Program-made: the position numbers and the translations under genes
Assembly: GCA_035430005.1 (NCBI GenBank)
Contig: DAOMFV010000012.1
Coordinates: 591-64,590 of the forward strand
Direction: 5' to 3'
Source: Gemmatales bacterium
Lineage (GTDB): Bacteria; Planctomycetota; Planctomycetia; Gemmatales; HRBIN36
Length of the DNA stretch: 64,000 bases
The notes under the pieces: model-generated
Databases searched by the model: none
Told to the model about the DNA's origin: nothing
What the model saw: only the letters and a program-made list of their open reading frames with translations
In this document: piece after piece, positions 5,503 through 53,519 of the stretch
Position numbering within the stretch: the stretch's first letter is position 1
Layout of the letters: each line of letters begins with the position of its first letter

Positions 5503-6498
5503 TCACGGAACGGGCAAACTACTCAAGATGTCCTGAATCACCCGGTCGCTGGTGACATCATCGGCTTCTGCTTCATAACTCATGAGGATGCGATGCCTGA
5601 GGACATCGGGGGCCACCGACTTGACATCCTGTGGCGTGACAAAATGGCGGCCAGCCAGGAATGCCTGAGCCTTGGCAGCCAGGGCTAACGAGATGGTGCC
5701 ACGAGGGCTGGCGCCGAACTGGATTAAGTGGGCCAAAGATAGACCGAACTGGGCCGGCTTGCGGGTCGCATGCACCACATCGACGATGTACTTCTCCACT
5801 TTGGTATCTAGATACATGCGATCGATTGCTGCGGAGAGCTGATGTAACACCGGTTCCGACAGTACTGCAGTGGACGTGGGCGGTGGAGCGATCCGGGCCA
5901 TCCGCTGCAGGATCGATTGCTCTTCCTCCGCGGTGGGGTAATCGAGCTTGAGCTTCATCAGGAAGCGATCAGCCTGGGCCTCAGCGAGGGGATAGGTGCC
6001 CTCATGTTCGATGGGGTTCTGCGTGGCCAGCACCAGAAAGGGTTTGGGAAGAGTGTGGGTCACGTCGCCGATAGTGACTTGCCCTTCCTGCATGGCTTCG
6101 AGGAGAGCGCTCTGCACTTTGGCTGGGGCGCGGTTGATTTCATCAGCCAGCACGATGTGGGCGAAGATGGGGCCCTTCTTGACCGTGAACTCGCCGGAGC
6201 GGGGATTGTAAATCTGGGTCCCCACGATGTCGGCGGGCAGTAGATCGGGAGTGAACTGAATGCGGCTGAAACTCAGATGCAGGCACGAGGCGAGTGTGCG
6301 AGCAGCCAGGGTCTTGGCCAAGCCCGGAACGCCTTCCAGGAGCAGGTGACCTCCAACGAGCAAACCTTCGACCATTCGTTCCAGCACAGCCCGCTGGCCG
6401 ACCATCACTTTGCCGATCTCGGCATAGAGCGGATCGAGGAGGGTACGAAGTTGCTTGAGTTCATCGACGGTGAGATGGGGTGGGGTATCTTCGGGCAT
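5503..6498 (-). CDS. MoxR-family AAA+ ATPase
   Basis: Walker A motif GVPGLAKT, Walker B motif LADEINR, and an overall MoxR-like sequence. The start is placed at ATG 6498 (MPEDTPP...) because the longer ORF start lies inside a palindromic repeat. Confidence 0.9.
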   Translation of the reverse strand: MPEDTPPHLTVDELKQLRTLLDPLYAEIGKVMVGQRAVLERMVEGLLVGGHLLLEGVPGLAKTLAARTLASCLHLSFSRIQFTPDLLPADIVGTQIYNPRSGEFTVKKGPIFAHIVLADEINRAPAKVQSALLEAMQEGQVTIGDVTHTLPKPFLVLATQNPIEHEGTYPLAEAQADRFLMKLKLDYPTAEEEQSILQRMARIAPPPTSTAVLSEPVLHQLSAAIDRMYLDTKVEKYIVDVVHATRKPAQFGLSLAHLIQFGASPRGTISLALAAKAQAFLAGRHFVTPQDVKSVAPDVLRHRILMSYEAEADDVTSDRVIQDILSSLPVP

Positions 6499-6532
6499 AT
6501 CGTGGATGCTTTGCTGGCTATGTATTCGTGTG

Positions 6533-6607
6533 ATACCAGCCCGACGCGCTAGCGAGGGAGGCCTTGGCGATTGCACGCGCTCCCTCGCTAGCGCGTCGGG
6601 CTGGTAT
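6533..6607. repeat. PAL-A palindromic element, copy 1
   Basis: The arm ATACCAGCCCGACGCGCTAGCGAGGG pairs with CCCTCGCTAGCGCGTCGGGCTGGTAT around a ~23-nt core (AGGCCTTGGCGATTGCACGCGCT). Confidence 0.9.
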
Positions 6608-22001: not shown

Positions 22002-22006
22002 CTGAA

Positions 22007-22074
22007 TGACAGCCCGACGCGCAAGCGAGGGGCGCGTGCAATCGCAAGGTTCACCCTCGCTAGCGCGTCGGGCT
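22007..22074. repeat. PAL-A palindromic element, copy 3 (core inverted)
   Basis: TGACAGCCCGACGCGCAAGCGAGGG ... CCCTCGCTAGCGCGTCGGGCT. The core GCGCGTGCAATCGCAAGGTTCAC is the reverse complement of the core in copies 1 and 2. Confidence 0.9.
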
Positions 22075-22093
22075 ACCAAACTCAGGACTTAAC

Positions 22094-30318: not shown

Positions 30319-30334
30319 TGGCACGCATTTCGCT
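30319..30334 (+). promoter_or_regulatory. candidate sigma54 (-24/-12) promoter of the RND efflux operon
   Basis: TGGCACG-CATT-TCGCT compared with the consensus TGGCACG-N4-TTGCW. GG (30320-21) and GC (30332-33) have the canonical 12-nt offset. A sigma54-dependent activator gene lies at the other end of the operon. Confidence 0.5.
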
Positions 30335-30371
30335 TAATGCACCTCGTCCGCATCTACTTGAATCACTCTTG

Positions 30372-30413
30372 TCTAACAAACCACATGAAATCTCTAACAA
30401 ACCACATGAAATC
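30372..30413 (+). repeat. perfect 21-bp tandem duplication (x2)
   Basis: TCTAACAAACCACATGAAATC occurs at 30372-30392 and again at 30393-30413. It duplicates an in-frame ATG (30385 and 30406). Confidence 0.95.
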
Positions 30414-31785: not shown

Positions 31786-31790
31786 GTATT

Positions 31791-31848
31791 CTCCCCCCAC
31801 CCTTTTCTCTCAGTTCCCCTCGGAAGAGAAAAGGGCTGGGGTGAGGGG
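31791..31848. repeat. PAL-B variant
   Basis: CCCTTTTCTCT (31800-31810) pairs with AGAGAAAAGGG (31825-31835), followed by CTGGGGTGAGGGG. Confidence 0.7.
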
Positions 31849-31886
31849 ATACTTGATGCTAAGTAATTCCTCAGAAGTCATTAGGA

Positions 31887-31933
31887 GGGCCAGACATTCC
31901 TGTCTGTGCCAGCCAGACAGGAATGTCTGGCCC
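31887..31933. repeat. 20-bp perfect-stem hairpin in the MFP-RND spacer
   Basis: GGGCCAGACATTCCTGTCTG (31887-31906) pairs with CAGACAGGAATGTCTGGCCC (31914-31933) around a 7-nt loop. Confidence 0.9.
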
Positions 31934-31999
31934 ACCAACCTAATAATTCTGCAAGAGCACTTATTTCTTTCCACTTAGAATAATCAAAAGGCTGTTACA

Positions 32000-36971: not shown

Positions 36972-36976
36972 CTCAG

Positions 36977-38422: not shown

Positions 38423-38621
38423 GGGGAGTTCCACTGGCTCAGTAGTTAAGTTACAGCTTCGGAGTTCGATGGTGGGAGGTTTTTTCGCGTTGGATCGTCT
38501 TCTATGGCATGATGTACGGCTTCCCACGACATAACTTCCCCTTGCCCCATTTTCCCCATTGCTTTAAGCTACGCCGACGAACTTATCCGGTTTCATCTCT
38601 CCAGGGCGAAAGGATGTGCCC

Positions 38622-40957: not shown

Positions 40958-41524
40958 CTAACTCTTCATCGAACGAACGAAGAAGCTGCCCCCACACGCC
41001 AGAATCACGAAGCCGATGGCGATGACGAAATGCCCGGCATAGGGGAAGGTCACAAACCGGCCGCTCTTGTTGCCAAACCAGAGAAACAACCCGCCGGCCA
41101 TCACAGCGAGACCGACCAGGGGCAGGACGATCCCCAGCAGCATACTGATGACAGGATTATCCTGGCAGAATTTGTGAAACACCGCCGTGCTGATCGCCTC
41201 ATCGGCAGGTTCAGGCTTGGCTCCCTGAGCCGTCAACACCGTTTTGACTTCGTCCTGGGTTTTACCCTGGTTGAGAAGGGCCAGGGCGTCGGCAACGAAG
41301 ATGCGCTGCTGGGCCAGTTCGATGATCTTAGCAGCCTGCGCGGCTTCCAGTTTTTGGCTCATCAGGTTTTGGTGTGTGACTTCCAGGGAAGAGCCTCCTC
41401 GCAGCATCTCTCGGGCTTCCGAAATCAGTTTCTTTTTGAGGCGTTCGTTCTGAAGCCAGACGAAGCCGATGAGGCCAAGCACCAGGATTCCAAAGCCACC
41501 GAGGTAAAGAGGCAGGTATTCCAT
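40958..41524 (-). CDS. membrane protein (1 N-terminal TM + helical linker + C-terminal TM bundle), paralogue of the next gene
   Basis: 188-aa ORF. It shares the N-terminal TM and the motif AAQAAKIIELAQQRIF with the ORF at 41592-41867 (AEHAAKIVLAAQQRFI). Confidence 0.55.
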   Translation of the reverse strand: MEYLPLYLGGFGILVLGLIGFVWLQNERLKKKLISEAREMLRGGSSLEVTHQNLMSQKLEAAQAAKIIELAQQRIFVADALALLNQGKTQDEVKTVLTAQGAKPEPADEAISTAVFHKFCQDNPVISMLLGIVLPLVGLAVMAGGLFLWFGNKSGRFVTFPYAGHFVIAIGFVILACGGSFFVRSMKS

Positions 41525-41591: not shown

Positions 41592-41867
41592 TTAACGAGT
41601 GTGTTGCAGGTTTGTCAGAGTTCCGCCCTGTTCTCGAATGAATCGTTGCTGAGCAGCCAGGACAATTTTGGCTGCGTGCTCCGCCTTGACTCCATGCGCA
41701 ACAAGATGCTCCTCGACTGTCTTTTCATCGGGACAGTAGCGCAACATCCCTTTTGAGTAGACGATCAACTGTCGAGTTAGTCTGGTGTGTAATACCAATG
41801 CCAACGTGTACATGGAAATAGCCACCAGGAATATACTGGTGAAATAAAGCGTCCCATTCTCCATCAA
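41592..41867 (-). CDS. small membrane-anchored protein, paralogue of 40958-41524
   Basis: 91-aa ORF with an N-terminal TM helix and the shared helical motif. Confidence 0.45.
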   Translation of the reverse strand: MMENGTLYFTSIFLVAISMYTLALVLHTRLTRQLIVYSKGMLRYCPDEKTVEEHLVAHGVKAEHAAKIVLAAQQRFIREQGGTLTNLQHTR

Positions 41868-42086: not shown

Positions 42087-45000
42087 ATGCCACAGGACGC
42101 AAATCAACCCAAAGGCTGGCGGGGCGATGGCAACCAGCCTAAACGAACCGCAAAGTATGGTTGGAAGCCGAAATCGGCGGGCATTGAGAAATCTCTTTTA
42201 ATGCGTCGTGGCACGCAGGTGAGTTTGGCGCTGAGTGTGCTCATGTGCATGGCAGTGATGGTATTCTTGTACCTCCTGTGGAGACCCCCTGAGCAAACCA
42301 GCATCATAATTGTTGCCGCCAGGCCTTCTGCAGATGCCACCGATTTGCGGGCTCCGCTGGACTTCCATGGTTGGGAGGGTTGTCAGAAATTGATGCGCTA
42401 TGTGAAAGACGCTAAGGATATCAAAGCTGCAGAAATTCTGCCCAAAGACAAAGACCACTTATCCTTATCAGATCAGAACAGCCTTCTTGAACTAGTCACC
42501 CTGGTGCAGAACAGCAAAACCAGCAGAGTGATTGTCTATTTCGGCCTCTTTGGTTTCGCTGGAGAACATGGCCCCTGTTTATTTGGCTCACATGGCGAGA
42601 TCATCCAGGTGAGCAAAATCATTGAGGAATTGGGAAAAGTTGCCGGGAAAGGTAAGGATATCGTCCTCCTTTTCGATGCTGCCCGCTTGCCAGTCGCCCC
42701 GGAACTCGGAGTTTTGCGCAACGACTTTGTGAGTTCACTTAAGGAGAATTTGGGTGAAAAGATCAAAAATACGAACCATCTTGCGGTGATCTGTAGCAGC
42801 AGCCCTGAAGAGCGTGCCTGGAACAGCGATGAATGGGGTTGTTCTGTTTTCCTTCAGCAGGTGATTGAAGCGTTACGTGGAAAGGCCAAAGGCAAGAGTG
42901 ACGATATTACGCTGATTCAATTCTTTAAGACGGTCGAGGAGGAAACCAAACGTTGGACCCAACTGCGCTTTGTGAGCCCGCAAATCCCGACTCTATTCTG
43001 TTCTGATGAAATGAAATCTGAAAAGAGTCCCGTCATTGTCACCCAGCAAAATAAGCATGAACCACTGAAAGACACCGAAGCCTCTAACGCACCCGGGTAC
43101 GACTGGGTAGTCAATGCTGACACGCATTTGGAAAAGCTCAAGAAACATTACATTGACACCTCCAATCTGGCCAAAGCCAGGCCGCACCCGGCTGTCTATA
43201 CTCCGGTTTCCTGGCGGCGGTATCGTGAGTTGCTGGTCAGACTGGAGCAAGCTGTTCGTATGAATGGCATCATGGCATCAGACACAGCAAGAAAACTGGA
43301 CGATGAATTAATCACATTGGAACAGTTCATCAGCAAATCGCAAGCTCTAGGCTTTGAAAAAGTTAGGGATACCAACACCATCTGGCCCATCATACTGGCT
43401 GGCAAAGCAGAGGAAGTTGAAACAGCAGACGTGTTCGCAGGGAATACGGCAAATTTGGCTCAGGAAACGTTCCACAAACCCTTCAACAGCGCTGATCCAC
43501 CACCTCCAGGCGCCGAACTACACCTGGCGTACAAGCTGGCGCAGTTCTGGGATAAAGGTTCTAAGCCATTACCAGATACCTTGAAACTCGCCATCGAGAC
43601 CCGCCAACTGGCGGAACGGGCCGCTCTCGGCTGCCCTGCGAAACCTATGGAGTATTTCTACACCGAACGGCTTTGGGAATGGATACAACCTGAACTCGAG
43701 AAACTGGATGCCAGGCGGCGCATCGCTGAAGACTATCTCTTCAGTGATGAACATCAAAAAGCTGTCGAGGACTTGAATGCGTTGAAACTGGAATATCAGA
43801 CTCTGATCAACAAATGTCTGCCGCTGCAAAAAGCCTGGGATGTGTATCATTATGCCGTCTCTGAAGCCTCCTTCCTCACGAAGTGGCATGTCTTTTGCGC
43901 GGAAGAATTGCAAGACAAAGACAAAGCAACGCGTCTCCAGGAGCTTTGGCGGGAGGTTCATCTATTGGAAGAAAACTTGCGGACAATCAAATTGGAAGAA
44001 TACTTCCGGACAGTCAATCGGGATTCTACTGCCAAAGAGATGGAGGAGATGGTGAAAAGATGCCGGGAGATCAATCTGTTGATGAAAACAGAGATGAAGG
44101 ACTTCCTTATTGCGGCCAACGATAAAATCGAAAAGGCGGCTGGTTCGCAAATTCCCCGGCATCAACTTGAGCTGCTGCTGTCGTTCCCCTGGCCGATTCC
44201 GAGAGAGAGCGATGCTGACAATAGACCGGTTGCAGATCGAGTGCTCGCCATCAACAAAGCTCGCGGAGCTAGCAGAGATTTGCACAAGACCGAAGGCCCA
44301 AGCAATATTACCCCCGATCCGAAAGTCTTGGACAAGATCGTTCAGTATCGAGGCGAATTGATTAAATCGATGATGCAGAAGGTCAATCCACGTTCCGATT
44401 CATTCCCCTTCGATGGTGGCCAAAAACAAGCGAAGGAGTTGGGCAAAGAGATAGAAGCATTTTGGAGGATGTTGGCTGTTGAAGGAGCCAAAGAACAAAA
44501 GCTTGATCTTGCAGATGTCAATTCTCGATATGCCTTGGCATTTACTGCAGGAACACCTGTCGAAGTCGCCCTGAACCAGCGCGATGCAAGGTATCGAACG
44601 CTCCTGAGAGAGCACGCCAAGCGTATTTGTCGGGATCACTGGTACGATGAGACGACGGCCTATTTCAAAGCAACTGCTGATAAGTACCTGAATAACGAGG
44701 GCGTTTTTTTTATTGATCCAGATAAGGACAATGACCCGGAGCTAAGGGACTTGTTGAAAACGGACCAACTGAAATGGAAACCCTCTACGTTAGAGAGGGC
44801 TTGGACGAGTGAGCCGAGCCGGGAATGGCCAATCGAAGTAGAGAATCCACTCAAGAAGATCGAAGGTCGGATTACGCTCTGGGCTGAAAACGGTACCGAG
44901 ACGGCAATCATGTTGAAAGAGGGGGGGGAGCGACGACTCTCGATGCCGCTGAACGAAGCCAGGCGAACGCTCACTTTGGAAGCCAAGGATGCCAGCGGCG

Positions 45001-47009
45001 TGGAAAAGAGGAAAATCGATCTGGCGTTTGCACCCAAAGCTTATTTCCGGGGGCAGAAGCCCTATGAGAGTATGGGTTTTTCCCTCAATCGCCAGCCTAG
45101 CTTGATTGTGACGGAACATCCCATGAAGGAAGGCGGGACGTTTACGTTGACCAAGGCAAAGGACTTACGTTTGGGATTGGGGCATTTGGCGATTGTGTTG
45201 GATTATTCACATAGTATGAGAGTGAGTGGTGAGGCTACCAAATACAACAAGGACGGCAAGGCTATCGACTGGAATTGGCGGCGAGAGGATAGTCGTATTC
45301 GGCAAGCCATTGATGGATTGGACAAACTGCTGAAAACTTTGTCTGATGATGTAAATGAAATTGATCTAAGTATTCATGTTTTCAGTGAGGAGAACGAAAA
45401 GACGAAAGCAATTCAAGAAAAGATTAGTTTCAAAGAAGGAGATCCGTTACGAAGTGACAAAATCCAGGATTTGACGCAGCAGATAGAAATTACTGAAATG
45501 TTCATTGGCATACTTAAGAAACGAGGTGGCAAGCGAGTATTAGTACCTCATGATAATAAGATGCCAGAACTTACTTTGGATGAATTTGGTATGCAACTAC
45601 AGCGACTAACACCCTATTCAAGTACTCCTCTGCTAAAATCGATGATTGGGGCCGTCAAACCTGTAAGAAATAAGCAGAACGTTACCTTACTTGTTTTGAC
45701 TGATGGTGCCGATACATCGCTTGGAGAACTGGAAAAAACAGACGATGCCAAGATTGATACTCTCAGGAAAAGCTTTGAGAATGAGTTTTTCAATAGCGGA
45801 TTATCAATCAACATTATTCTGTTCACCACTGATAAAGACGAAAAGGCTATTGCACATAGGCAGTTCAAAGAATTCAAGAGCGACACAAGTTCGTGCGTAG
45901 TAAAGGAAGCTATTGATTCGCAAGAGCTTCTGATAGCCTTGAAAGATTCATTCAAGGCAAGAATGGAAGTTTTTGATAAGAGTAATCAAGCCATACATTC
46001 AAAGGAAAAGGATTCTCCACCATATTTTACTGCCCAAAAGATAAACTCAACAATAGGAGAACTGTCTATTTCTCCTCTACTTACAACTGGCACCTATGAC
46101 TCCCAAGTTCGTGTTGATAAGCAGCTGTTATCTTTTTTCCCAGGTGATCACTTATTTATCAAGTTGGAAAATGCGCCTCGAGGAGTGAAGTACAAACGAG
46201 AATTGTTCAAAGACGTGCTACCATTCAGCCAACCCGGACCATCTGAACGCTACATTCCTGGAGAAATCGACGGCAAGAAGACGCTGTGGCATTTGACTGT
46301 GGCGGAGAATCTCGCTCCTGGACACTTGAGGCTAACACTCGAACACGAAAAACATCGAGTGGAATCCTCAGAAGGAACTCTACCTGTTCTCAGCATGTAC
46401 CGACCGGAATTCGTCTGGTGGGATGTCAAGGCTGTGGGAACGAGCGGAAAAGAGCAGCCAGCTCAAGGCACGATTCACATCACCAAACTGCCACATTACT
46501 ACGCGCCCGGTTGGGATATCGATCAAATAGGAACCAAGAAGGATGAGAAGCTCAGGTTTCAGGCATGGGTTAGTGAAAATATTATTCAAAAGCAGCACCT
46601 CCATTCTTTTGTTCGTAGTGAATTGAAAAAGAACAACGATTGGCAAAAAATCAACAACCAGCTAATATCTGTTTCGTGCGAAACGCATGATCTCACGAAT
46701 GGTTCTCAACCGATCTCGAAGCAGGTTCCTTGCCTAGTGGTACGTTATCGACTAAGCAGTTCTGAACAACGTGTCTGGTTCGAAAAGCCTACTAGTAGCG
46801 TGAATCGATCGGATCACTATTACTTTCCTGATGCTCAGACGATGACAGTATTCTTTTCTCCGTTTAACCCCGAAGGCGATCCCGACGAGAAACTCTCGTT
46901 GGAAATGATCGACCTGGACAACTTCAAGCAACTCAAAAAGCCCGTCGTTGACACCAAAATTGACGTGTTCAAGAACTGGCAAGGTCCTCCGAATCTCGAC
47001 AGCAAGTAA
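42087..47009 (+). CDS. giant single-pass membrane protein: basic N-tail, TM, caspase-like (C14-fold) module lacking the catalytic Cys, long helical region, vWA/MIDAS domain, beta-rich C-terminus
   Basis: 1640-aa uninterrupted ORF with a GAGGAA Shine-Dalgarno sequence 8 nt upstream. The TM is at about aa 45-65. The caspase-like strands are VIVYFG..AGEHG, IVLLFDAAR and LAVICSSSPEERAWNSD..CSVFLQQVIEALRG. The vWA motifs are VLDYSHSM (DxSxS), SSTPL and LLVLTDGADT. Confidence 0.85.
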   Translation: MPQDANQPKGWRGDGNQPKRTAKYGWKPKSAGIEKSLLMRRGTQVSLALSVLMCMAVMVFLYLLWRPPEQTSIIIVAARPSADATDLRAPLDFHGWEGCQKLMRYVKDAKDIKAAEILPKDKDHLSLSDQNSLLELVTLVQNSKTSRVIVYFGLFGFAGEHGPCLFGSHGEIIQVSKIIEELGKVAGKGKDIVLLFDAARLPVAPELGVLRNDFVSSLKENLGEKIKNTNHLAVICSSSPEERAWNSDEWGCSVFLQQVIEALRGKAKGKSDDITLIQFFKTVEEETKRWTQLRFVSPQIPTLFCSDEMKSEKSPVIVTQQNKHEPLKDTEASNAPGYDWVVNADTHLEKLKKHYIDTSNLAKARPHPAVYTPVSWRRYRELLVRLEQAVRMNGIMASDTARKLDDELITLEQFISKSQALGFEKVRDTNTIWPIILAGKAEEVETADVFAGNTANLAQETFHKPFNSADPPPPGAELHLAYKLAQFWDKGSKPLPDTLKLAIETRQLAERAALGCPAKPMEYFYTERLWEWIQPELEKLDARRRIAEDYLFSDEHQKAVEDLNALKLEYQTLINKCLPLQKAWDVYHYAVSEASFLTKWHVFCAEELQDKDKATRLQELWREVHLLEENLRTIKLEEYFRTVNRDSTAKEMEEMVKRCREINLLMKTEMKDFLIAANDKIEKAAGSQIPRHQLELLLSFPWPIPRESDADNRPVADRVLAINKARGASRDLHKTEGPSNITPDPKVLDKIVQYRGELIKSMMQKVNPRSDSFPFDGGQKQAKELGKEIEAFWRMLAVEGAKEQKLDLADVNSRYALAFTAGTPVEVALNQRDARYRTLLREHAKRICRDHWYDETTAYFKATADKYLNNEGVFFIDPDKDNDPELRDLLKTDQLKWKPSTLERAWTSEPSREWPIEVENPLKKIEGRITLWAENGTETAIMLKEGGERRLSMPLNEARRTLTLEAKDASGVEKRKIDLAFAPKAYFRGQKPYESMGFSLNRQPSLIVTEHPMKEGGTFTLTKAKDLRLGLGHLAIVLDYSHSMRVSGEATKYNKDGKAIDWNWRREDSRIRQAIDGLDKLLKTLSDDVNEIDLSIHVFSEENEKTKAIQEKISFKEGDPLRSDKIQDLTQQIEITEMFIGILKKRGGKRVLVPHDNKMPELTLDEFGMQLQRLTPYSSTPLLKSMIGAVKPVRNKQNVTLLVLTDGADTSLGELEKTDDAKIDTLRKSFENEFFNSGLSINIILFTTDKDEKAIAHRQFKEFKSDTSSCVVKEAIDSQELLIALKDSFKARMEVFDKSNQAIHSKEKDSPPYFTAQKINSTIGELSISPLLTTGTYDSQVRVDKQLLSFFPGDHLFIKLENAPRGVKYKRELFKDVLPFSQPGPSERYIPGEIDGKKTLWHLTVAENLAPGHLRLTLEHEKHRVESSEGTLPVLSMYRPEFVWWDVKAVGTSGKEQPAQGTIHITKLPHYYAPGWDIDQIGTKKDEKLRFQAWVSENIIQKQHLHSFVRSELKKNNDWQKINNQLISVSCETHDLTNGSQPISKQVPCLVVRYRLSSSEQRVWFEKPTSSVNRSDHYYFPDAQTMTVFFSPFNPEGDPDEKLSLEMIDLDNFKQLKKPVVDTKIDVFKNWQGPPNLDSK

Positions 47010-47029
47010 TACCCCAGGAACCGCCCAAC

Positions 47030-49846
47030 ATGTCTGAAGCGAAGCCTGTTCCTTCTGGTCCTGAACGCCGTTGGCGGAAGGAGCAACCTTCGGAGTTCAA
47101 GAGCATCGAGAGGCGCGGACGGATGGCGATCTTGGCCATCGGCGCGGTCGTGCTGGCCGGTATCCTCATCGGAAGTTTATTCATGTGGGGAAGCGCTAAG
47201 CAAACCCATCTCGATTGCTACCCCTATGGCAGATACGACAACGAACTACGGGCACCGGCCCCCTGGTTCTTTCACGACGCAAACCAACTCTATCAGACCT
47301 TTGGCGTTCTGGAGACCAGAAACCCTCTTACTAAGTTGCAGCACGACTTCCTCATCAGTGATCTGAAGAGTCGTAAAGAAGAAACCATCATCATCTATAT
47401 CGCAGGTCGGGGCATTGCGCGGAATAACAAGGTCTACGTACTGCCCAGCGACGCAACGGACGTTGAGTCCAGTTGGATTTCGCTTGCTTCCATTATCGAG
47501 GCAATTACAGAAAGCCCATCAAAACACAAACTGTTGCTGTTAGACATCGCCGGCACTGCGCCCAATCTCTACACCGGGCCATTGCAGGACAGCATCGCCA
47601 ATAAGATTGATGACTATCTCGCCAAAACGTCGCCTCCCCCTTTCCCCATGCTGACCTCTTGCTCTAGAGATGAAACCAGCAACGTCATGGCTGTCACGGG
47701 CAGCAGCGTCTTTGGTCATTACCTGAATCAGGGGCTACAGGGATTAGCGAATGGCTTTGTCGACGGTCATAAAGATCAAGAAATCACCGTCAAGGAACTG
47801 GTGAAGTTTGTCAACACACGAGTCAATCGCTGGACTTGCCTGAACCTGGGACGAACGCAAACCCCCAAGTGTTACGGCCCAGAGGATATTGATTTCCTGG
47901 TAGTCCATCGACATAAAATAGCAAACTGGCTGGAAGAGCTACCCAAGCCTGCTGAAACGCCGGCACCACCCGATGAAAGCAACTTGAAAGACAAGGAGAA
48001 GCAGGAGAATAACGAGAAAAGAGAGAAAGAGCAAAAGGCGAAAGATCAGGAGAAGCTTAGATTCGTCTTCCCGAAAGAACTGGAAGAAGGCTGGAAGGTT
48101 TACGAAGTAGCCAAGAACACGCCTGAGTACGCGCTGCGCCTGGCCACGTTGAATCGTTTTGCGCATCATCTCCGCCAGTACGAGGGAACGGTGATGTTGT
48201 TCAATAACAGCCCGGAGACCGAGCGAACCCTGAACAAGCGATTGCTTACGGATTTGAGTAAACATGTTACCGATGTCACTTCAGACTTATCCAAAATTGA
48301 ACTCCAAACACGCCTGAAACAGCTTCCTAACAGCATCACTGCCCTGTGGCCCCGAAGCTGGCTGCAACTACGAACCAGGGCACCGAGAGAGATTCCCACC
48401 GAACTGGTAGATGGCTTTAACAATCTCTATTCTTCGTGGCCAAGCACTTCTGCAGGCAGCGTAAAAGCTGATCCGACGGAGAGGGAAAAAGCGTTTCTTG
48501 ATCTCGTCAGCGGCAAGAAGGACGAGAAGAACCCAGCTCCCTCTCGCTATGAGGAAGCTCTGTTTCTTTGCTGGGATAAGCTTTGTGCCGAGGATACTCG
48601 CCTCACGCTGGATCTGTTGAAACGCTCAGTGGATCTGATGACGAAGCTTCTTCCCGATGCCGTGCGCAACAAACTTCATGAGCGATGCAACGAACTGGAT
48701 ATGCTCAGATGGATTATCGAACAAAGTGAAGGAGACTCGGAATGGAACTTTTCCGGCAAAGAGTATGAGACAAACAGGGAACTTGGCCAGTATTACTTCG
48801 ACATGATTCACCAATGGCTGATGGCGGAGTATCTGTCTGAGCGATGCGCGAACGGCTATCTGCCAGACGGCGTCGGGTTTGCCAGCCGACAAGCTTCATT
48901 GGAATCAGTTAAGAAGCAGCATCAACGAATAGTCCAACAACTGCTGGAACTCAGAAATAGGAAGAGTTATCGGCCACTCTCCTCAGAAATGGTCGAGTTT
49001 GCCAAGCAATTCAAGTCTTTGTCCGGTGACTACACTAATTGCCTGAAAGACATGGATCAGGAGCGGGCTGCCCTGGATGCCTGGTGGGCCTCCGTGGCGG
49101 TCCTCCAGGCAACCGCAGAAATGATGGTCAGTGAAGATAATTCCGAGCGTTGGCAGTTGTGGGATACGCTGGCGAATAAGACCCTCCTGTTGAAGCGCCT
49201 TCTGAAAGCGACGTCTCTGGATCCATCGGCCCGGACCGACGTTATCAAGGCCCGCGACAAACTGGTTAATTCCTTCAACGACCTGAAGGATAACTTGCTG
49301 AAGAGTGGCAACCAGGAGGGAGTGAAATGGAAATCGTGCCGAGGCATTGAACGAGTGTTGAAATGCGGATTGCTCACCACAGCCGACCGAAGAAAGCTGC
49401 ATGAGTTACTCATGAAGCTACAGGAGGAGATTCACATCAGCACGGTGAATATCGAAATTCGAGATGATAAAGGCACAGAACCGCCCACTAAGCCAGAGGC
49501 ATCGCCTATGAACTCCGCTCTTCAGGCGGATCGACGAGCTGTCATTTCACGGCAATTGTTATTGCTGGGAGGGTCGACCAGGATGGAAAAAGCCAACACG
49601 ACACCCTCGGAAGAGGAGCTGCGAAATGCCTGGACCGAGGAAATGCCCGAGCTCCTTAAGGTCGCCCGCGGCAAAGAGAACTGGCTCGACGCGGCTCGCA
49701 TCGAAGCGGTATTGCCACAAACTAATACAACTGATGCTCTGTTGCAATGGCGACTCAAATCCAGCAAAACGTATTACCTATGGTTGGAAGAGCGACAAAA
49801 GCAGCTGGAAGCCCGGCAATTGCATGTTCCAGACCAACGGAAATAA
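47030..49846 (+). CDS. large single-pass membrane protein: TM + pseudo-caspase module (His->Arg, Cys->Ala) + charged linker + helical region
   Basis: 938-aa ORF starting 20 nt after the previous stop. The caspase-fold pattern is TIIIYIAGRGIARNNKVYVLPSDA, KLLLLDIAGTAP, MLTSCSRDETSNV and SSVFGHYLNQGLQGLA...ITVKELVKFVNTRV...QTPKCYG. Confidence 0.85.
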   Translation: MSEAKPVPSGPERRWRKEQPSEFKSIERRGRMAILAIGAVVLAGILIGSLFMWGSAKQTHLDCYPYGRYDNELRAPAPWFFHDANQLYQTFGVLETRNPLTKLQHDFLISDLKSRKEETIIIYIAGRGIARNNKVYVLPSDATDVESSWISLASIIEAITESPSKHKLLLLDIAGTAPNLYTGPLQDSIANKIDDYLAKTSPPPFPMLTSCSRDETSNVMAVTGSSVFGHYLNQGLQGLANGFVDGHKDQEITVKELVKFVNTRVNRWTCLNLGRTQTPKCYGPEDIDFLVVHRHKIANWLEELPKPAETPAPPDESNLKDKEKQENNEKREKEQKAKDQEKLRFVFPKELEEGWKVYEVAKNTPEYALRLATLNRFAHHLRQYEGTVMLFNNSPETERTLNKRLLTDLSKHVTDVTSDLSKIELQTRLKQLPNSITALWPRSWLQLRTRAPREIPTELVDGFNNLYSSWPSTSAGSVKADPTEREKAFLDLVSGKKDEKNPAPSRYEEALFLCWDKLCAEDTRLTLDLLKRSVDLMTKLLPDAVRNKLHERCNELDMLRWIIEQSEGDSEWNFSGKEYETNRELGQYYFDMIHQWLMAEYLSERCANGYLPDGVGFASRQASLESVKKQHQRIVQQLLELRNRKSYRPLSSEMVEFAKQFKSLSGDYTNCLKDMDQERAALDAWWASVAVLQATAEMMVSEDNSERWQLWDTLANKTLLLKRLLKATSLDPSARTDVIKARDKLVNSFNDLKDNLLKSGNQEGVKWKSCRGIERVLKCGLLTTADRRKLHELLMKLQEEIHISTVNIEIRDDKGTEPPTKPEASPMNSALQADRRAVISRQLLLLGGSTRMEKANTTPSEEELRNAWTEEMPELLKVARGKENWLDAARIEAVLPQTNTTDALLQWRLKSSKTYYLWLEERQKQLEARQLHVPDQRK

Positions 49847-49932
49847 ATTGACACTGGCCGCGTTTGCCGCAAGAATAGCCGGTGTCACCATTCGATTTGC
49901 TCGCTAGGCCAGATTGTTTCAAGGATCACGTT

Positions 49933-51762
49933 ATGTCTTCTCAAGTCAAGGTTCTTATCTCGCTGGCGCTGCTGTTGTGGAGCGGCCCTTCTTTTCTGTC
50001 AGCTCAAGAACGGTTAACGGGGCCGAAATTGGCTTTCGGTACCGACTCGGACGCGGAACGAGCGAGTGCCGAGATGAAGTCTTTTGACCTGCGGCCCAAT
50101 GTCAAATTGCCTTTTTATGTCTTCATCAAGAACTCCGAAATTGATCCAAGGACTATGGTCTTGACTATCACCTGTCTGCAAATGCAGGAACCGACGAAGC
50201 AAGCCGAATCCAAAAAGCTGACTATCGAGGACCTGAAGATTCCGGGCAAAGGTAAAAACGACCTAAAAGATAAGATCCTGGCCGTCCCCTTTCCCAAACT
50301 CGATGACAAGGGAATTAACCTGGGCCTTGCTCAGCAACTGATCTTTAAGCTCGAAGATTCTGAGCGAAGAGTGAAGCTCGATGAAAAAACGATCCAGCTG
50401 AACGTCATGAAAACCGAAGAATATCTTTCGTTCGATCCGTCGCCGGAAATTAACAGTAAAGGGCAACTGGTGGTCAGCGTGAAGCCTACGGCGAAATTCC
50501 GCGGGCCGCCCTGCCAGTTGGAACTTGACTGGTCACGACTGAAGAACCTGGTGCCCGATCAATCCCCCAGCGGCGCCATGAAAGGCGAGGTAGACGATCA
50601 GGAAAACAAGAAAGCCACTCTCTCCATCAATAAATTGCGATTCAACAAGGATAGCAGCGATCATGGCTTCTTCTCCATCAAAGTAGATGACGTGGCGCGA
50701 GCCAGGACCTGGCTGGCTACTGACATGGAATCCACCGCCCGGCTCGATACGCTCCCGGCCAATACGCTCCGCATCGTCACAGAGAAGTATTTCCTGTCGG
50801 ATGCCAAGGACAAGCTCATGGTTTGCTTTGAAGTGGATAACCCGTCAGACCCCGGCAACACTAAACTGGATTTCGGAAGAGATTTATCGGAAACCGGTAA
50901 GTTTGTTGAGTATCATCGTCCCCACTATCGCAACGAAAGTGTTTCCCTACAGACAGATGAGAAAGAGAAAAACGCACTCTTCTTGAAGCCGAACGTCTCT
51001 GATTGGAAGCTGGAGATCTCTTCAGAAGGCCTGGCGGGAACGGCCTTGTTTCGAGCCAGTCTGATTACTCCCAATGATCGTTTTGATAAAGAGACAAAGA
51101 CGATCTTCAGCAAGGCAGTGGCCAAGATCGACCCAATTACCATCCGGGACAGCAAAAACCAGGTCAAAGAGCCGCAGGCGACTTTTCTTCCCGGCGAGAT
51201 GATCAACATCGAGGTGAAGGCACGATGTCCTGAAACTGAGATAACGGAAGTGATGGTGTACGCCGGCGAAGCGGTGCCCGTCCGGGCGGACAACAACAAA
51301 CTCTACGATACCACCAAGCTTATCAGGGCGACATTCAATAATGGAGCCTGGTCAGCTGGCGTGGAAGTGCCCGATAAGAAAGGCAGTTACAAACTGTTCG
51401 CGATCGCCTGGAATGGCGTCGGGCTTCCCTCGACGGAACGACGGGAACTGAAAGTCGTCGACCCGGTACCCGTCACGGATAAGGAGAAATTAGGCAGCAT
51501 CAAGGGAAGGGTAGTCGGCGGGACTGATGAGGTTTCGCAGAAAGAAGTGCCGGTAACCCTCGAAGACAACAATAAGAAGGTTATCAAATCGACGAAGACG
51601 GATGATAAGGGCGCTTTTGAATTCAAGGATGTTCCTGCCGGCAGCTATCTCATTCAGTGCAAACGAGGCACAGGGATAGCAACGGTCAAAGACAAGGTTG
51701 ATGTGACTGTTGAAAACGGCAAAGAAACCATATTGAAGAAGCCTTTGAATCTACACCGATAA
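49933..51762 (+). CDS. secreted beta-rich protein with C-terminal carboxypeptidase-regulatory-like (CarboxypepD_reg) domain
   Basis: Signal peptide MSSQVKVLISLALLLWSGPSFLSAQE, with AAGGAT 6 nt upstream of ATG 49933. The C-terminus GSIKGRVVGG...TKTDDKGAFEFKDVPAGSYLIQC fits the CarboxypepD_reg fold. Confidence 0.8.
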   Translation: MSSQVKVLISLALLLWSGPSFLSAQERLTGPKLAFGTDSDAERASAEMKSFDLRPNVKLPFYVFIKNSEIDPRTMVLTITCLQMQEPTKQAESKKLTIEDLKIPGKGKNDLKDKILAVPFPKLDDKGINLGLAQQLIFKLEDSERRVKLDEKTIQLNVMKTEEYLSFDPSPEINSKGQLVVSVKPTAKFRGPPCQLELDWSRLKNLVPDQSPSGAMKGEVDDQENKKATLSINKLRFNKDSSDHGFFSIKVDDVARARTWLATDMESTARLDTLPANTLRIVTEKYFLSDAKDKLMVCFEVDNPSDPGNTKLDFGRDLSETGKFVEYHRPHYRNESVSLQTDEKEKNALFLKPNVSDWKLEISSEGLAGTALFRASLITPNDRFDKETKTIFSKAVAKIDPITIRDSKNQVKEPQATFLPGEMINIEVKARCPETEITEVMVYAGEAVPVRADNNKLYDTTKLIRATFNNGAWSAGVEVPDKKGSYKLFAIAWNGVGLPSTERRELKVVDPVPVTDKEKLGSIKGRVVGGTDEVSQKEVPVTLEDNNKKVIKSTKTDDKGAFEFKDVPAGSYLIQCKRGTGIATVKDKVDVTVENGKETILKKPLNLHR

Positions 51763-52000: not shown

Positions 52001-52408
52001 ATGCCGTTCTCTATTCCCTGGTTGTCGGTTATGGCAGCGGCGATCGCCTACTTTGTGCTGGGCGCGCTGTGGTATGGTTACTTCGGCGATGCCTGGCTGA
52101 AAGAACTGCATAAACGTAAAGAACAACTCGATACCAAAGACCCTGCCCCCTATCTGGTAGCGGCTCTGGGGGCCGTGCTGAACGCGACAGCTACCGCTGC
52201 CGTTCTCGGCTGGGTGATGCCTTCTACGCAAACCACGCTTCTGGCAGTGTTCATCACCACGCTCTTTCTGGGTGGAGCTGTAGTGGCTGCCGGCGCGGCC
52301 AAACATTATGCTTTTTCGGGCTGGTCGTGGAGACTTTACGCCATCGATATGGGGCATGATCTGGCAGGCTTCTTCCTCATGAGCCTGATCATCGCACTAC
52401 TGAAGTAG
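52001..52408 (+). CDS. DUF1761-family membrane protein
   Basis: N-terminus WLSVMAAAIAYFVLGALWYGYFGDAWLK, four TM segments, and a length of about 135 aa. Confidence 0.6.
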   Translation: MPFSIPWLSVMAAAIAYFVLGALWYGYFGDAWLKELHKRKEQLDTKDPAPYLVAALGAVLNATATAAVLGWVMPSTQTTLLAVFITTLFLGGAVVAAGAAKHYAFSGWSWRLYAIDMGHDLAGFFLMSLIIALLK

Positions 52409-53519
52409 CGACTTCAGGAATCGCTCCACCCCTGACGGGCCTGCCTTTCCACTGCACGAGAATCATCATCGCCATCCCGGCGGCAAATAACCCGATGCTG
52501 ATTGTCTGCGAGATGGTGAAGTTGCCTACATACTCAGGATTATCCAACCGCAGTTGTTCAATGAGGTAGCGGTTGATGGAGTAGGTCATCATAAGCAGGG
52601 CGATGACCGCCCCTTCTCTGCGTCGCAACGGATAGTATGCCGAAAGCAGCAGGCACAGGATGATTCCATCCAGCGCCATGTAGAGTTGCGTTGGCAACAG
52701 GGGCAGGCTCGGCGGGGGCACAAACGTCAGATTCTTCGTTTCTCCATGGCGTTTGACGGTGATCGTCACTTCTTCGTAAGGTCTGACAGCGATCAATGCC
52801 TGGTTGATGGCATCTCGTGTCAGCGTGGCGTGCCCATTGATCGATTCAACGAGATCGTCTTTTTGCAGTCCAGCCTTCTCAGCCGAAGAACCAAAGTCAA
52901 CAGCAACGATGGTGCAGTCATCCTTGATATCCATGCCCAGTTGCATACCAAATGTTGTCTGCCAGCCTCGCAGCCAGACGACTTCATGATAAGGATTGCT
53001 ATTGGCAGGAAATTGCACAGTCATCGAACTGGGCACATGCGCGGGGTCAGCGACATCGCCATAACAGCAGCCATTGAGGAAGCAGCCTATCCGACCGAAA
53101 GCAATGCCCAAGGCAATGGAAGGCGCCAACCAGTCGGCGATTTGCAGCGTTCGCACCTTGGCCGGCTTTGCTACATAGCGATACGCCAGCAGGTACCCCA
53201 GAAGACCCCCTGGAATCGCACCATAGAGCACCAGGCCCCCTTCCCAGATCTTGACGAACTGCTGAATGCCTTCCCAGAGGTTTATGGGCGGTTTCTGATC
53301 GACAAACATTGAGAGCAACCGAGCACCAATGACACCGCCAACGAAGATATACAGCCCCACGTCCCACGGTATGGTAGAGAAATACCCTTCCCGCTTCGCC
53401 CGTCGTCCCGCGAGCCAAGCCGATGCCACGAAGGCGATGATCAGCATCACGCCGAAGCCAAAGATGGGCATTCTGGCATCGCCGAAGGGCAGGGGGATGT
53501 AGAAGAGGACTTGTCGCAT
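52389..53519 (-). CDS. lgt: prolipoprotein diacylglyceryl transferase with an inserted PDZ-like domain
   Basis: Lgt signature FGRIGCFLNGCCYG and an Lgt-like N-terminus. An extra ~90-aa segment (AVDFGSSAEKAGLQKDDLVESINGH...VTITVKRHGE) looks PDZ-like. The gene overlaps the convergent DUF1761 gene by 20 nt. Confidence 0.85.
   Translation of the reverse strand: MRQVLFYIPLPFGDARMPIFGFGVMLIIAFVASAWLAGRRAKREGYFSTIPWDVGLYIFVGGVIGARLLSMFVDQKPPINLWEGIQQFVKIWEGGLVLYGAIPGGLLGYLLAYRYVAKPAKVRTLQIADWLAPSIALGIAFGRIGCFLNGCCYGDVADPAHVPSSMTVQFPANSNPYHEVVWLRGWQTTFGMQLGMDIKDDCTIVAVDFGSSAEKAGLQKDDLVESINGHATLTRDAINQALIAVRPYEEVTITVKRHGETKNLTFVPPPSLPLLPTQLYMALDGIILCLLLSAYYPLRRREGAVIALLMMTYSINRYLIEQLRLDNPEYVGNFTISQTISIGLFAAGMAMMILVQWKGRPVRGGAIPEVATSVVR

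What the first reader, a model, noticed from the sequence alone, without database searches (positions are those of the whole stretch)
42087..51762. AT-rich three-gene operon: two membrane-anchored pseudo-caspase giants (one with vWA) plus a secreted partner. Uncharacterised system
Three tightly spaced co-directional ORFs of 1640, 938 and 609 aa cover 9.7 kb, with gaps of 20 nt and about 86 nt. The base composition is clearly more AT-rich than the flanking lipid A and lgt genes. The first two proteins are paralogous in their first ~300 aa. Each has a basic cytoplasmic tail, one TM helix, and a caspase/peptidase-C14-like fold with the active site destroyed. Each continues into a very long helical region. 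The first also carries a complete-looking vWA MIDAS domain and a beta-rich C-terminus. The third protein has a signal peptide and a CarboxypepD_reg-type C-terminal domain. By the positive-inside rule the bulk of all three would be extracytoplasmic. Combinations of caspase-like and vWA modules are known from prokaryotic conflict and signalling systems. I know of no described system with this architecture: TM-anchored, doubly inactivated, and with no NTPase. The nearest MoxR is 36 kb away.
Basis: partly seen in the sequence, partly recalled or inferred. Interest (0 to 1): 0.8.

Follow-up and report, generated by a model that had tools for sequence, protein, structure and literature searches.

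The report
Planctomycete envelope trio linked to T6SS
Three adjacent genes in a Gemmatales (Planctomycetota) genome encode a conserved envelope complex whose relatives elsewhere sit next to type VI secretion genes, including a TssM that lacks its periplasmic half, so the trio is probably a new kind of periplasm-spanning part of that secretion machine.

Summary
Three co-directional ORFs (A 1640 aa, B 938 aa, C 609 aa) have gaps of 20 and 86 nt and a GC of 0.49, against 0.56 for the rest of the window. A and B each have a basic N-terminal tail, one TM helix and a caspase-fold domain without the catalytic dyad. A also has a vWA/MIDAS domain. C has a signal peptide and a CarboxypepD_reg domain.

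- A and B are homologous over about 820 columns, not about 300. A is a B-like module plus a beta/vWA/beta extension.
- The family is large: 423 representatives at 50% identity with E<=1e-30.
- B-C fusion proteins are common: 33 of the top 149 hits.

The main result comes from gene neighbourhoods. In 14 relatives' loci the A gene lies next to T6SS genes. Most often this is a divergent vgrG with PAAR, Tvp adaptors or toxins. One locus has tssA-tssB-tssC-hcp. Two loci have tssK-tssL plus a tssM-like gene with no periplasmic domain.

My best reading (confidence about 0.5) is that A, B and C form the periplasm-spanning part of a Gemmatales-type T6SS membrane complex. This would be analogous, not homologous, to TssJLM or to Bacteroidota TssNQOPR.

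The window itself has no T6SS gene, and its copy is a long-branch member. For this genome the role is inferred by homology only.

The parts
42087..47009 (+). Gene A (1640 aa). Domain order: cytoplasmic tail, TM helix, pseudo-caspase, helical domain, beta region, vWA/MIDAS, beta-rich C-terminus.
   Evidence: ORF. Translation. Identical to the NCBI hypothetical protein PLN21_03885 of a Gemmatales MAG. All family-invariant residues are retained.
42087..42218 (+). A: basic cytoplasmic tail (aa 1-44) with a conserved W-[RKQ] motif (KGWRG).
   Evidence: The tail has 10 K/R residues. The W[RKQ] motif is present in 24 of 24 A-type and 105 of 134 B-type tails.
42219..42275 (+). A: single TM helix (aa 45-63).
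   Evidence: Hydropathy peak of 2.5.
42282..43034 (+). A: caspase-fold domain without the catalytic dyad (aa ~66-316).
   Evidence: Pfam Peptidase_C14 E 2e-5, 24.8 bits, above the cut-off of 21.4. In the alignment the His position is Phe and the Cys position is Ala (LFDAAR).
43104..44786 (+). A: all-helical domain (aa ~340-900), homologous to the helical domain of B.
   Evidence: hhalign of A6 against A7: prob 100, E 8e-80, 820 columns. Helices appear in the low-confidence AF2 model.
45174..45956 (+). A: vWA domain with MIDAS residues D1039, S1041, S1043, T1180 and D1206, interrupted by an insertion.
   Evidence: Conserved motifs. PDB profile hits to vWA proteins at E 7e-5. Pfam VWA_2 in 8 of 13 homologues. 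Foldseek hits are vWA proteins only.
45957..47006 (+). A: beta-rich C-terminal region (aa 1291-1640) of unknown fold.
   Evidence: Strands in the AF2 model, but pLDDT is below 50. Conserved among A-types (Aext HMM E<=1e-123 on L036-L038). Not homologous to C.
47030..49846 (+). Gene B (938 aa). Domain order: tail, TM helix, pseudo-caspase, about 600 aa of helical domain.
   Evidence: ORF. AF2 pLDDT 84.6, pTM 0.83. 423 representatives with E<=1e-30.
47129..47185 (+). B: single TM helix (aa 34-52), preceded by a basic tail with an RRWRKE motif.
47204..47929 (+). B: caspase-fold domain (aa 59-300) without the dyad. The His position is Arg in AGRG, and the Cys position falls in LDIAG.
   Evidence: Foldseek matches MALT1 and caspases at E 4e-5 to 1e-3. 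NCBIfam caspase_w_EACC1 scores 31 bits, below its cut-off. Alignment.
47987..49819 (+). B: helical domain (aa 320-930) with no match among solved or viral structures.
49933..51762 (+). Gene C (609 aa from the ATG). Signal peptide (aa 1-24), beta-rich body, then a C-terminal CarboxypepD_reg/transthyretin-like domain (aa 522-598; nt 51496-51726).
   Evidence: Pfam. Family alignment with conserved N-terminal hydrophobic segments. The C HMM matches the C-terminal ~550 aa of 33 B-C fusion proteins.
49848..49876 (+). Promoter-like site (TTGACA-17-AAGAAT) between B and C. It could be an internal promoter. Consensus match only.
   Evidence: The number of such sites in the region is below the shuffle expectation, so this is weak.
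52001..52408 (+). DUF1761 small membrane protein (135 aa) downstream of C. Its membership of the system is uncertain.
   Evidence: It follows C in L001, L002 and L009 (88-92% identity), but not in distant loci.

Best explanation
A, B and C form a conserved envelope complex of Gemmatales.

Proposed architecture:
- A and B are ancient paralogues anchored in the cytoplasmic membrane by one N-terminal helix.
- Each leaves a short basic tail with a W-[RKQ] motif in the cytoplasm.
- Each places an inactive caspase-fold domain and a ~600-aa helical domain in the periplasm.
- A adds a MIDAS vWA domain and beta-rich domains.
- C is a secreted beta-sandwich protein that binds B. The two are one polypeptide in many relatives.

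Proposed role: the complex is most likely the periplasm-spanning part of a lineage-specific type VI secretion membrane complex. It would work with TssL and with a TssM that has kept its membrane and cytoplasmic parts but lost its periplasmic domain. The pseudo-caspase and helical domains would act as oligomerising scaffold. The vWA domain, the beta domains and C would form the part nearest the outer membrane.

Shown: domain content, paralogy, B-C fusion, topology signals, and gene linkage to T6SS in relatives.
Inferred: physical assembly, interaction with TssL/TssM/TssK, and that the copy in this window does the same job.
For: 1. Linkage to the T6SS spike. A-type genes lie directly and divergently next to vgrG in L007, L010, L012, L013, L019, L026, L027, L030, L036/L037 and the JGI contig of P0003. 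L014 has PAAR next to A, and L015 has a DddA-like toxin. These islands carry standard T6SS loading genes: DUF2169/TvpA, DUF6484/TvpC, Tox-PAAR-like and FHA-DUF4123 (PMC13373197).

2. Linkage to core T6SS genes.
- One JGI contig reads A-sized gene, B-C fusion, ImpA_N (TssA), VipA, VipB, Hcp, ImpE on one strand.
- L038 reads A, B-C fusion, kinase-FGE-sulfatase, TssK (VasE), TssL (DotU), IcmF-related_N.
- L015 has the homologous tssK, tssL and tssM-like genes convergent on A-B-C.

3. A short TssM. The tssM-like genes of L038 and L015 end right after their last TM helices. They have no periplasmic domain. A and B supply two large periplasmic proteins at the same loci.

4. Fusion evidence. All 33 of the top 149 B-profile hits that are longer than 1100 aa are B-C fusions. 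In them the mature part of C follows B. This ties B to C and puts the bulk of B in the same compartment as a signal-peptide protein.

5. Phylogeny. vgrG-linked A genes are spread over the whole main A clade in a neighbour-joining tree. The linkage is therefore old rather than a single chance event.

6. Host background. T6SS is present in Gemmataceae and Planctomycetota (PMC9230969 table; bioRxiv 10.64898/2026.06.16.732483).

7. Precedent. The Bacteroidota T6SSiii membrane complex is built from single-pass proteins with periplasmic domains (TssQ/O/P, including PKD beta-sandwiches) and a vWA-containing TssR (PMC10781749).
Against: - The window has no T6SS gene. Pfam scans covered the ten largest other ORFs and the ten neighbours of the operon.
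- The window lineage (with L001, L002, L009) is a long-branch sister to the main A clade and never shows vgrG.
- Several other relatives also lack adjacent T6SS genes: L018, L023, L029, L031, L032.
- Most T6SS-linked cases are vgrG islands rather than core clusters. That pattern fits an accessory factor as well as a structural one.
- Only two tssM-like genes were seen, and one has an in-frame stop.
- No sequence or fold similarity to TssJ, TssL or TssM was found.
- No interaction has been tested.
- Whether these genomes also carry a full-length TssM or a TssJ elsewhere is unknown.
Confidence: 0.5

Rival explanations
1. A T6SS accessory sensor or regulator rather than a structural part. In this reading the periplasmic vWA and pseudo-caspase domains sense envelope contact or damage and license firing. 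The nearest models are the TagQRST-PpkA pathway and the periplasmic vWA domain of PpkA.
For: Ser/Thr kinases lie next to the module in L038 (kinase + FGE-sulfatase), in L008 (kinase-TPR) and on the JGI core-cluster contig. An FHA-GGDEF gene ends the vgrG island in L030. Most linkage is to vgrG islands, as expected for an accessory factor.
Against: The cytoplasmic tails are only about 35-50 residues and have no signalling domain. The short TssM leaves the periplasmic part of the machine unaccounted for. Kinases are absent from most loci.
Confidence: 0.15
2. In this window's lineage the trio works independently of T6SS, for example as an envelope scaffold, an inner-to-outer-membrane tether, or a vWA adhesin complex. 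The T6SS link of its relatives would then not apply here.
For: There is no vgrG or T6SS gene in the window or in the syntenic loci L001, L002 and L009. The lineage sits on a long branch with an atypical GC. In L005 the A gene and a B-C fusion are followed by a TolC-family OEP gene, which shows other envelope partners exist.
Against: All family-invariant residues, both tail motifs and the full MIDAS site are retained. T6SS genes are often scattered in a genome, so absence from 64 kb says little.
Confidence: 0.2
3. A defence against incoming T6SS spikes. The complex would act as a periplasmic shield or spike-intercepting assembly, kept beside the cell's own vgrG much as an immunity gene is kept beside its toxin.
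For: The constant pairing is vgrG with A, while the effectors downstream of vgrG vary. The idea of immunity against a spike-associated toxin has been raised for Serratia (PMC13373197).
Against: Immunity genes are normally small and lie downstream of their effector. Linkage to tssA-BC-hcp and to tssK-L-M fits a machine part better. No toxin domain was seen in the adjacent VgrGs.
Confidence: 0.07
4. One reading: a caspase/vWA conflict or programmed-death signalling module, unusual in being membrane-anchored and inactive.
For: A caspase fold and a vWA domain occur together. There is a weak NCBIfam hit to EACC1-associated caspases (31 bits). An active WD40-caspase sits next to an A-like gene in L008.
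Against: No PADLOC match. The hit is far below the family cut-off of 140 bits. The catalytic Cys is absent from the whole family. The proteins are extracytoplasmic. There is no NTPase or effector partner. The gene context is secretion machinery.
Confidence: 0.05

Closest known systems
Bacteroidota T6SSiii membrane complex TssN-Q-O-P-R (PMC10781749)
   Same: It is a lineage-specific replacement for the canonical T6SS membrane complex. [quoted passage not shown] It includes helical periplasmic proteins, beta-sandwich (PKD) domains and a vWA domain in TssR. Its genes are encoded with T6SS genes.
   Different: No homology was shown, and I had no TssNQOPR sequences to test. In T6SSiii the vWA domain is in a lipoprotein, whereas here it is in the TM-anchored protein A. 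T6SSiii has no caspase-fold domains. T6SSiii lacks TssL and TssM entirely, while the Gemmatales loci keep TssL and a shortened TssM.
Canonical T6SSi membrane complex TssJ-TssL-TssM
   Same: The proposed job is the same: a trans-envelope anchor and channel. Gene position is similar, with A and B-C lying upstream of tssK-tssL-tssM in L038, where tssJ usually lies. The overall layout is also similar: an inner-membrane anchor, a long helical periplasmic part, beta-rich domains, and a transthyretin-like partner (TssJ has that fold; this is from my own knowledge).
   Different: No Pfam, PDB-sequence or Foldseek similarity to TssJ, TssL or TssM was found. C has no lipobox. A and B have one TM helix and almost no cytoplasmic domain.
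Bacterial caspase homologues lacking the dyad (pseudo-orthocaspases; Peptidase_C14)
   Same: They share the caspase/hemoglobinase fold, with the conserved D in the beta4 strand and the ...C/S..Q.S...E...S.F motifs. The catalytic residues are replaced.
   Different: Here the domain is extracytoplasmic, is fused to a family-specific 600-aa helical domain, and is duplicated into two co-operonic paralogues.
PpkA/TagQRST threonine-phosphorylation pathway of Pseudomonas H1-T6SS (own knowledge)
   Same: It includes a periplasmic vWA domain on a single-pass inner-membrane protein encoded with a T6SS. Kinases and an FGE-sulfatase domain lie near some relatives.
   Different: A has no kinase domain and only a ~44-aa cytoplasmic tail.
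MoxR-vWA systems (Bat operon, MoxR-vWA-beta-propeller ternary systems)
   Same: They contain a MIDAS vWA protein that is sometimes membrane-anchored.
   Different: No MoxR gene is adjacent. The only AAA_3 gene in the window is 36 kb away. None was seen in any related locus.

Membership tests
Peptidase C14 / caspase superfamily | Caspase-hemoglobinase alpha/beta fold | tested here: met
   Pfam PF00656 scores 24.8 bits for the A domain, above the 21.4 cut-off, and 9 of 28 family members match. The B model matches MALT1 and caspases by Foldseek at E 4e-5.
Peptidase C14 / caspase superfamily | Catalytic His-Cys dyad | tested here: not met
   The Cys column is T/A/I/V/M in all A and B domains. The His column is F in window A and R in window B. 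Only the separate WD40-caspase of L008 has GHG...DTCYSG.
vWA domain with MIDAS | DxSxS ... T ... D metal-site motif in a Rossmann-like fold | tested here: met
   D1039, S1041, S1043, T1180 and D1206 are conserved. PDB vWA proteins match at E 7e-5. Pfam VWA_2 matches 8 of 13 homologues. Window A alone gives no Pfam hit, and its model has low confidence.
T6SS component (any) | Conserved genomic association with T6SS core or spike genes | tested here: met
   14 related loci carry vgrG, PAAR, Tvp adaptors or toxins, or tssA-BC-hcp, or tssK-L-M next to A. This is not met in the window itself.
T6SS component (any) | Required for Hcp/VgrG secretion or sheath assembly | not testable with these tools
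   This needs genetics in a Gemmataceae strain.
Canonical TssJLM membrane complex | Homology to TssJ, TssL (DotU) or TssM (IcmF) | tested here: not met
   A, B and C give no Pfam or NCBIfam hit to these families. Neither the PDB profile search nor the top Foldseek matches include TssM, TssL or TssJ.
Bacteroidota TssNQOPR membrane complex | Homology to TssN/Q/O/P/R | not tested
The resemblance is architectural only (PMC10781749).
Known anti-phage defence systems (PADLOC) | Match to a PADLOC protein model | tested here: not met
   No hit for A, B or C at E<=0.01.
EACC1-associated caspase conflict systems | Score above the NCBIfam NF047832 cut-off, plus an EACC1/NTPase partner | tested here: not met
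   B scores 31.4 bits against a cut-off of 140. No NTPase is encoded in the operon.
MoxR-vWA systems | Adjacent MoxR AAA+ ATPase | tested here: not met
   The only AAA_3 gene is at 5503..6576, 36 kb away.
CarboxypepD_reg / transthyretin-like domain (protein C) | Pfam PF13620 above its cut-off | tested here: met
   36.7 bits against a cut-off of 32.3, at residues 522-598.

The most novel reading that the evidence does not exclude
Gemmatales, and perhaps other Planctomycetota, would use a fourth kind of T6SS membrane complex. It would be a hybrid in which TssL and a TssM without a periplasmic domain stay in the inner membrane. The trans-periplasmic cage would be built from two paralogous pseudo-caspase/helical single-pass proteins, one carrying a MIDAS vWA domain, plus a beta-sandwich partner that is often fused to one of them. 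This would be the first structural use of a dead caspase fold in a secretion machine.
Probability: 0.45. Interest if true: 0.85.

Novelty: new variant of a known kind. Interest (0 to 1): 0.72.

Why it matters
How a T6SS crosses the envelope is known in detail only for TssJLM, and more recently for the unrelated Bacteroidota complex. A third solution in Planctomycetota would show that the envelope-spanning part of the machine has been replaced more than once, while the phage-like core stays fixed. Planctomycetota have an unusually wide and variable periplasm.

It would also explain three things:
- why these genomes encode a TssM that stops at the membrane;
- what several hundred large "hypothetical" protein families in metagenomes do;
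- how catalytically dead caspase-fold domains can be used outside the cytoplasm.

The idea is directly testable by phyletic profiling, multimer prediction, cryo-ET and knock-outs.

Tried and rejected
- **Word-index homologue search.** It found only 4-5 relatives per protein and made the family look rare. The exhaustive profile search corrected this.
- **AF2 model of A.** Residues 441-1640 with a 6-sequence alignment gave pLDDT 49.6. Only the vWA part was usable. The fold of A's beta-rich regions remains unknown.
- **Search for a fold for the helical domain.** Neither the PDB profile search for B nor Foldseek against viral structures gave anything.
- **Sigma-54 promoter upstream of A.** None was found. 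The count across the window equals the chance expectation.
- **PADLOC.** No hit for A, B or C.
- **Plasmid and viral collections.** tblastn of an A homologue against plasmids found nothing. The scan of viral contigs found nothing.
- **TssM-like protein of L038 against PDB.** phmmer gave no hit. The statement that it is a shortened TssM therefore rests on three things: the precomputed Pfam IcmF-related_N hit, its position after tssK-tssL, and TM analysis.
- **Homology between A's C-terminal extension and C.** Rejected; hhalign probability is 1%.
- **tRNA or Rfam elements that might mark an island.** None were found. The AT-rich operon is syntenic in L001/L002 and equally AT-rich there, so it is not a recent insertion.
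- **Annotating the window through the look-up of encoding contigs.** This failed, because of a start-codon mismatch in one case and a short contig in the other.

Full report
**1. The observation**

The window comes from a Gemmatales (Planctomycetota) metagenome-assembled genome. Proteins A, B and C are identical to NCBI entries from a "Gemmatales bacterium".

The gaps are 20 and 86 nt. The operon GC is 0.494 against 0.561 for the rest of the window.

The flanks are also as described:
- lpxD and lpxI upstream;
- a DUF1761 gene, lgt (with a PDZ insertion), a reverse transcriptase, tsf and rpsB downstream;
- a MoxR-type AAA_3 gene 36 kb away.

The operon is not a recent island. The orthologous loci L001 and L002 (59-72% protein identity) have the same neighbours and the same low GC. 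No tRNA or Rfam element flanks it.

**2. Anatomy**

*Membrane anchor.* A and B each have one N-terminal TM helix preceded by a strongly basic tail. Across the family the tail holds a median of 7-10.5 K+R, against 1.5-2 in the 20 residues after the helix. The tail carries a conserved W-[RKQ] motif in 24 of 24 A-type and 105 of 134 B-type sequences.

*Caspase-fold domain.* The domain after the helix has a caspase fold.
- The isolated A domain passes the Pfam Peptidase_C14 cut-off (24.8 against 21.4 bits), and 9 of 28 family members match.
- A high-confidence AF2 model of B (pLDDT 84.6, pTM 0.83, 81-sequence alignment) matches MALT1 paracaspase and caspases.
- The dyad is gone. A neighbouring active WD40-caspase in locus L008 aligns with GHG...DTCYSG, while every A and B has T/A/I/V/M at the Cys column. 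At the His column window A has Phe and window B has Arg.

*Helical domain.* The remaining ~600 residues of B are all helical and match no solved or viral structure.

*Extent of paralogy.* Profile-profile comparison shows that A residues ~38-900 are homologous to the whole of B (prob 100, E 8e-80, 820 columns). A is therefore a B-like module plus a C-terminal extension.

*The extension of A.* It contains a vWA domain with a complete MIDAS motif (D1039, S1041, S1043, T1180, D1206). Support comes from PDB profile hits, from Pfam hits in 8 of 13 homologues, and from Foldseek hits to vWA proteins. Beta-rich regions flank the vWA domain. I could not resolve their fold, because the model has pLDDT below 50.

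*Protein C.* It has a signal-peptide-like N-terminus, a beta-rich body and a CarboxypepD_reg (transthyretin-like) C-terminal domain.

**3. The family is large, and B and C are often one protein**

The word-index search suggested a handful of relatives. An exhaustive profile search with B found 7348 representatives at E<=1e-3, 2078 at E<=1e-10 and 423 at E<=1e-30.

All 33 proteins longer than 1100 aa among the top 149 hits are B-C fusions. The C-family HMM covers their last ~550 residues from about profile position 30, which is the mature part of C without its signal peptide.

This is strong evidence that B and C work together physically. It also supports the positive-inside prediction that the bulk of B lies outside the cytoplasm.

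A and B form two separate clades in a neighbour-joining tree of the caspase-fold domain, so the duplication is old. Gene content varies between loci:
- A+B+C: the window lineage, L015, L017, L018 and a JGI contig;
- A plus a B-C fusion: L005/L006, L036-L038 and a JGI contig;
- A+B: L023;
- A alone: L013 and L030.

**4. Gene neighbourhoods point to type VI secretion**

Scans of reference genomes and metagenomes, together with contig look-ups, gave about 35 loci. Where a name is available they are Gemmataceae or Gemmatales.

*Spike genes.* In eleven of these loci a vgrG gene lies directly and divergently upstream of A. These are L007, L010, L012, L013, L019, L026, L027, L030, L036/L037 and the JGI contig of P0003, with PAAR alone in L014.

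The genes behind vgrG are typical T6SS loading and effector genes:
- PAAR;
- DUF6484 and DUF2169, the TvpC/TvpA spike chaperones of PMC13373197;
- Tox-PAAR-like;
- FHA-DUF4123;
- DUF6861, DUF6402 and a class-3 lipase.

In L015 the divergent neighbour is a 920-aa protein ending in a DddA-like deaminase toxin. The effectors vary, while the vgrG-A pair is constant. vgrG-linked A genes are scattered over the whole main A clade. Chance adjacency of one gene family to vgrG at this rate is not credible.

*Core genes.* Three loci go further.
- A 22.5-kb JGI contig reads, on one strand: a 1752-aa gene, a B-C fusion, ImpA_N (TssA), VipA (TssB), VipB (TssC), Hcp and ImpE.
- L038 reads: A, B-C fusion, a Ser/Thr kinase with an FGE-sulfatase domain, VasE (TssK), DotU (TssL), and a protein with only the IcmF-related_N domain.
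- L015 has homologues of those same tssK, tssL and tssM-like genes (38-41% identity, E 1e-43 to 1e-113) convergent on A-B-C.

*The short TssM.* In L015 the tssM-like protein has a TM hairpin, a cytoplasmic domain and two more TM helices, and then ends (...RNRSRRTG). In L038 it ends three residues after its third TM helix. It also has an in-frame TGA where L015 has Cys.

From established knowledge, canonical TssM carries a ~700-residue periplasmic domain. That domain forms the trans-envelope pillars and binds TssJ. These loci lack it, and they encode A and B, two very large periplasmic proteins anchored in the same membrane.

**5. Most likely mechanism**

I conclude that the family is a T6SS component. 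My best specific reading is that A, B and C build the periplasm-spanning part of a Gemmatales-type membrane complex. The inferred roles are:
- TssL and the short TssM provide the cytoplasmic hub for the baseplate.
- The W-[RKQ] tails of A and B could contact that hub.
- The dead caspase-fold domains, a fold that typically dimerises, and the helical domains would form the cage.
- The vWA/MIDAS domain, the beta domains of A, and C would form the part nearest the outer membrane.

The published Bacteroidota complex is built on the same plan from unrelated parts: single-pass proteins with periplasmic domains, PKD beta-sandwiches, and a vWA domain in TssR (PMC10781749).

All steps beyond domain content, fusion, topology signals and gene linkage are inference.

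**6. Caveats and rivals**

The window has no T6SS gene, and its lineage is a long-branch sister to the main A clade with no vgrG linkage. About nine loci show other neighbours.

The local copy does keep every family-invariant residue, both tail motifs and the MIDAS site. Its role is nevertheless inferred by homology.

Four alternatives remain:
- a sensor or regulator of firing, suggested by kinases near some loci;
- a T6SS-independent envelope scaffold in this lineage;
- a shield against incoming spikes;

The last is weakened by the absence of any PADLOC hit, by a sub-threshold EACC1-caspase score, by the extracytoplasmic location, and by the gene context.

**7. Novelty**

I found no paper in the held library that links caspase-fold or vWA proteins to vgrG, or that describes a Planctomycetota T6SS membrane complex. 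Databases name A and B "hypothetical protein".

I rate this a new variant of a known kind, namely an alternative T6SS envelope module. It would be of clear interest to secretion-system specialists if confirmed.

Noticed in passing
window 53582-55099 (-): A 505-aa reverse transcriptase lies between lgt and tsf. Its best PADLOC models are RT_other (3e-138) and the retron-type RT_outgroup (4e-131). It is conserved in the same place in L001 and L002 (80-84% identity). I did not look for an associated ncRNA or effector. Rfam found nothing between 40 and 57.5 kb.
   Followed up: partly
window 52389-53519 (-): The prolipoprotein diacylglyceryl transferase (Lgt) carries a PDZ domain inserted at residues ~198-265. 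This is an unusual architecture. It is conserved in L001 and L002.
   Followed up: no
window 30319-30334 (+), with 30337-35512 and 35523-38527: A sigma-54-type promoter match (TGGCACGCATTTCGCT, one mismatch) lies immediately upstream of a HlyD-AcrB efflux operon. A sigma-54 response regulator and a histidine kinase are encoded just downstream on the other strand. This is a likely regulatory unit and is unrelated to the trio.
   Followed up: partly
L038 15611-17191: The tssM-like gene has an in-frame TGA (LFGG*YLAATG) exactly where the L015 homologue has Cys (LFGGCYVAATG). It could be a sequencing error, a pseudogene, a split gene or a recoded codon.
   Followed up: partly
L008 3-1889 and 6991-8952: A WD40-repeat protein with an apparently active caspase domain (GHG...DTCYSG) lies directly upstream of an A-like gene. 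A Ser/Thr kinase-TPR protein lies directly downstream. This is a different context from the vgrG-linked loci.
   Followed up: partly
L005 5239-7308 (and L006): A TolC-family outer-membrane protein (Pfam OEP, 88.9 bits) follows the A gene and a B-C fusion. It may be an outer-membrane partner in that lineage. It is not seen in other loci.
   Followed up: partly
L023 (contig CAZESP010000003.1, 254 kb): This is the one A+B locus in a genome labelled Alcaligenaceae rather than Gemmatales. It could be a binning error or a horizontal transfer. I did not examine it.
   Followed up: no
window 40958-41524 (-) and 41592-41867 (-): Two small ORFs (188 and 91 aa) lie between lpxI and gene A. The 91-aa one appears to have a hydrophobic N-terminal segment, judged by reading its sequence; no TM prediction was run on it. 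Genes of similar size and position occur in L001. Neither has a Pfam or PADLOC match.
   Followed up: partly
window 19617-23407 (+): A planctomycete-specific gene pair: a PSCyt/PSD-domain protein (DUF1592/1588/1587/1585/1595 with a cytochrome c motif) followed by a DUF1552 (HXXSHH) protein.
   Followed up: no
window 5503-6576 (-): A MoxR-type AAA_3 ATPase, with a weak match to bpMoxR of the MoxR-vWA-beta-propeller ternary systems. I did not examine its own neighbours for a vWA partner.
   Followed up: no
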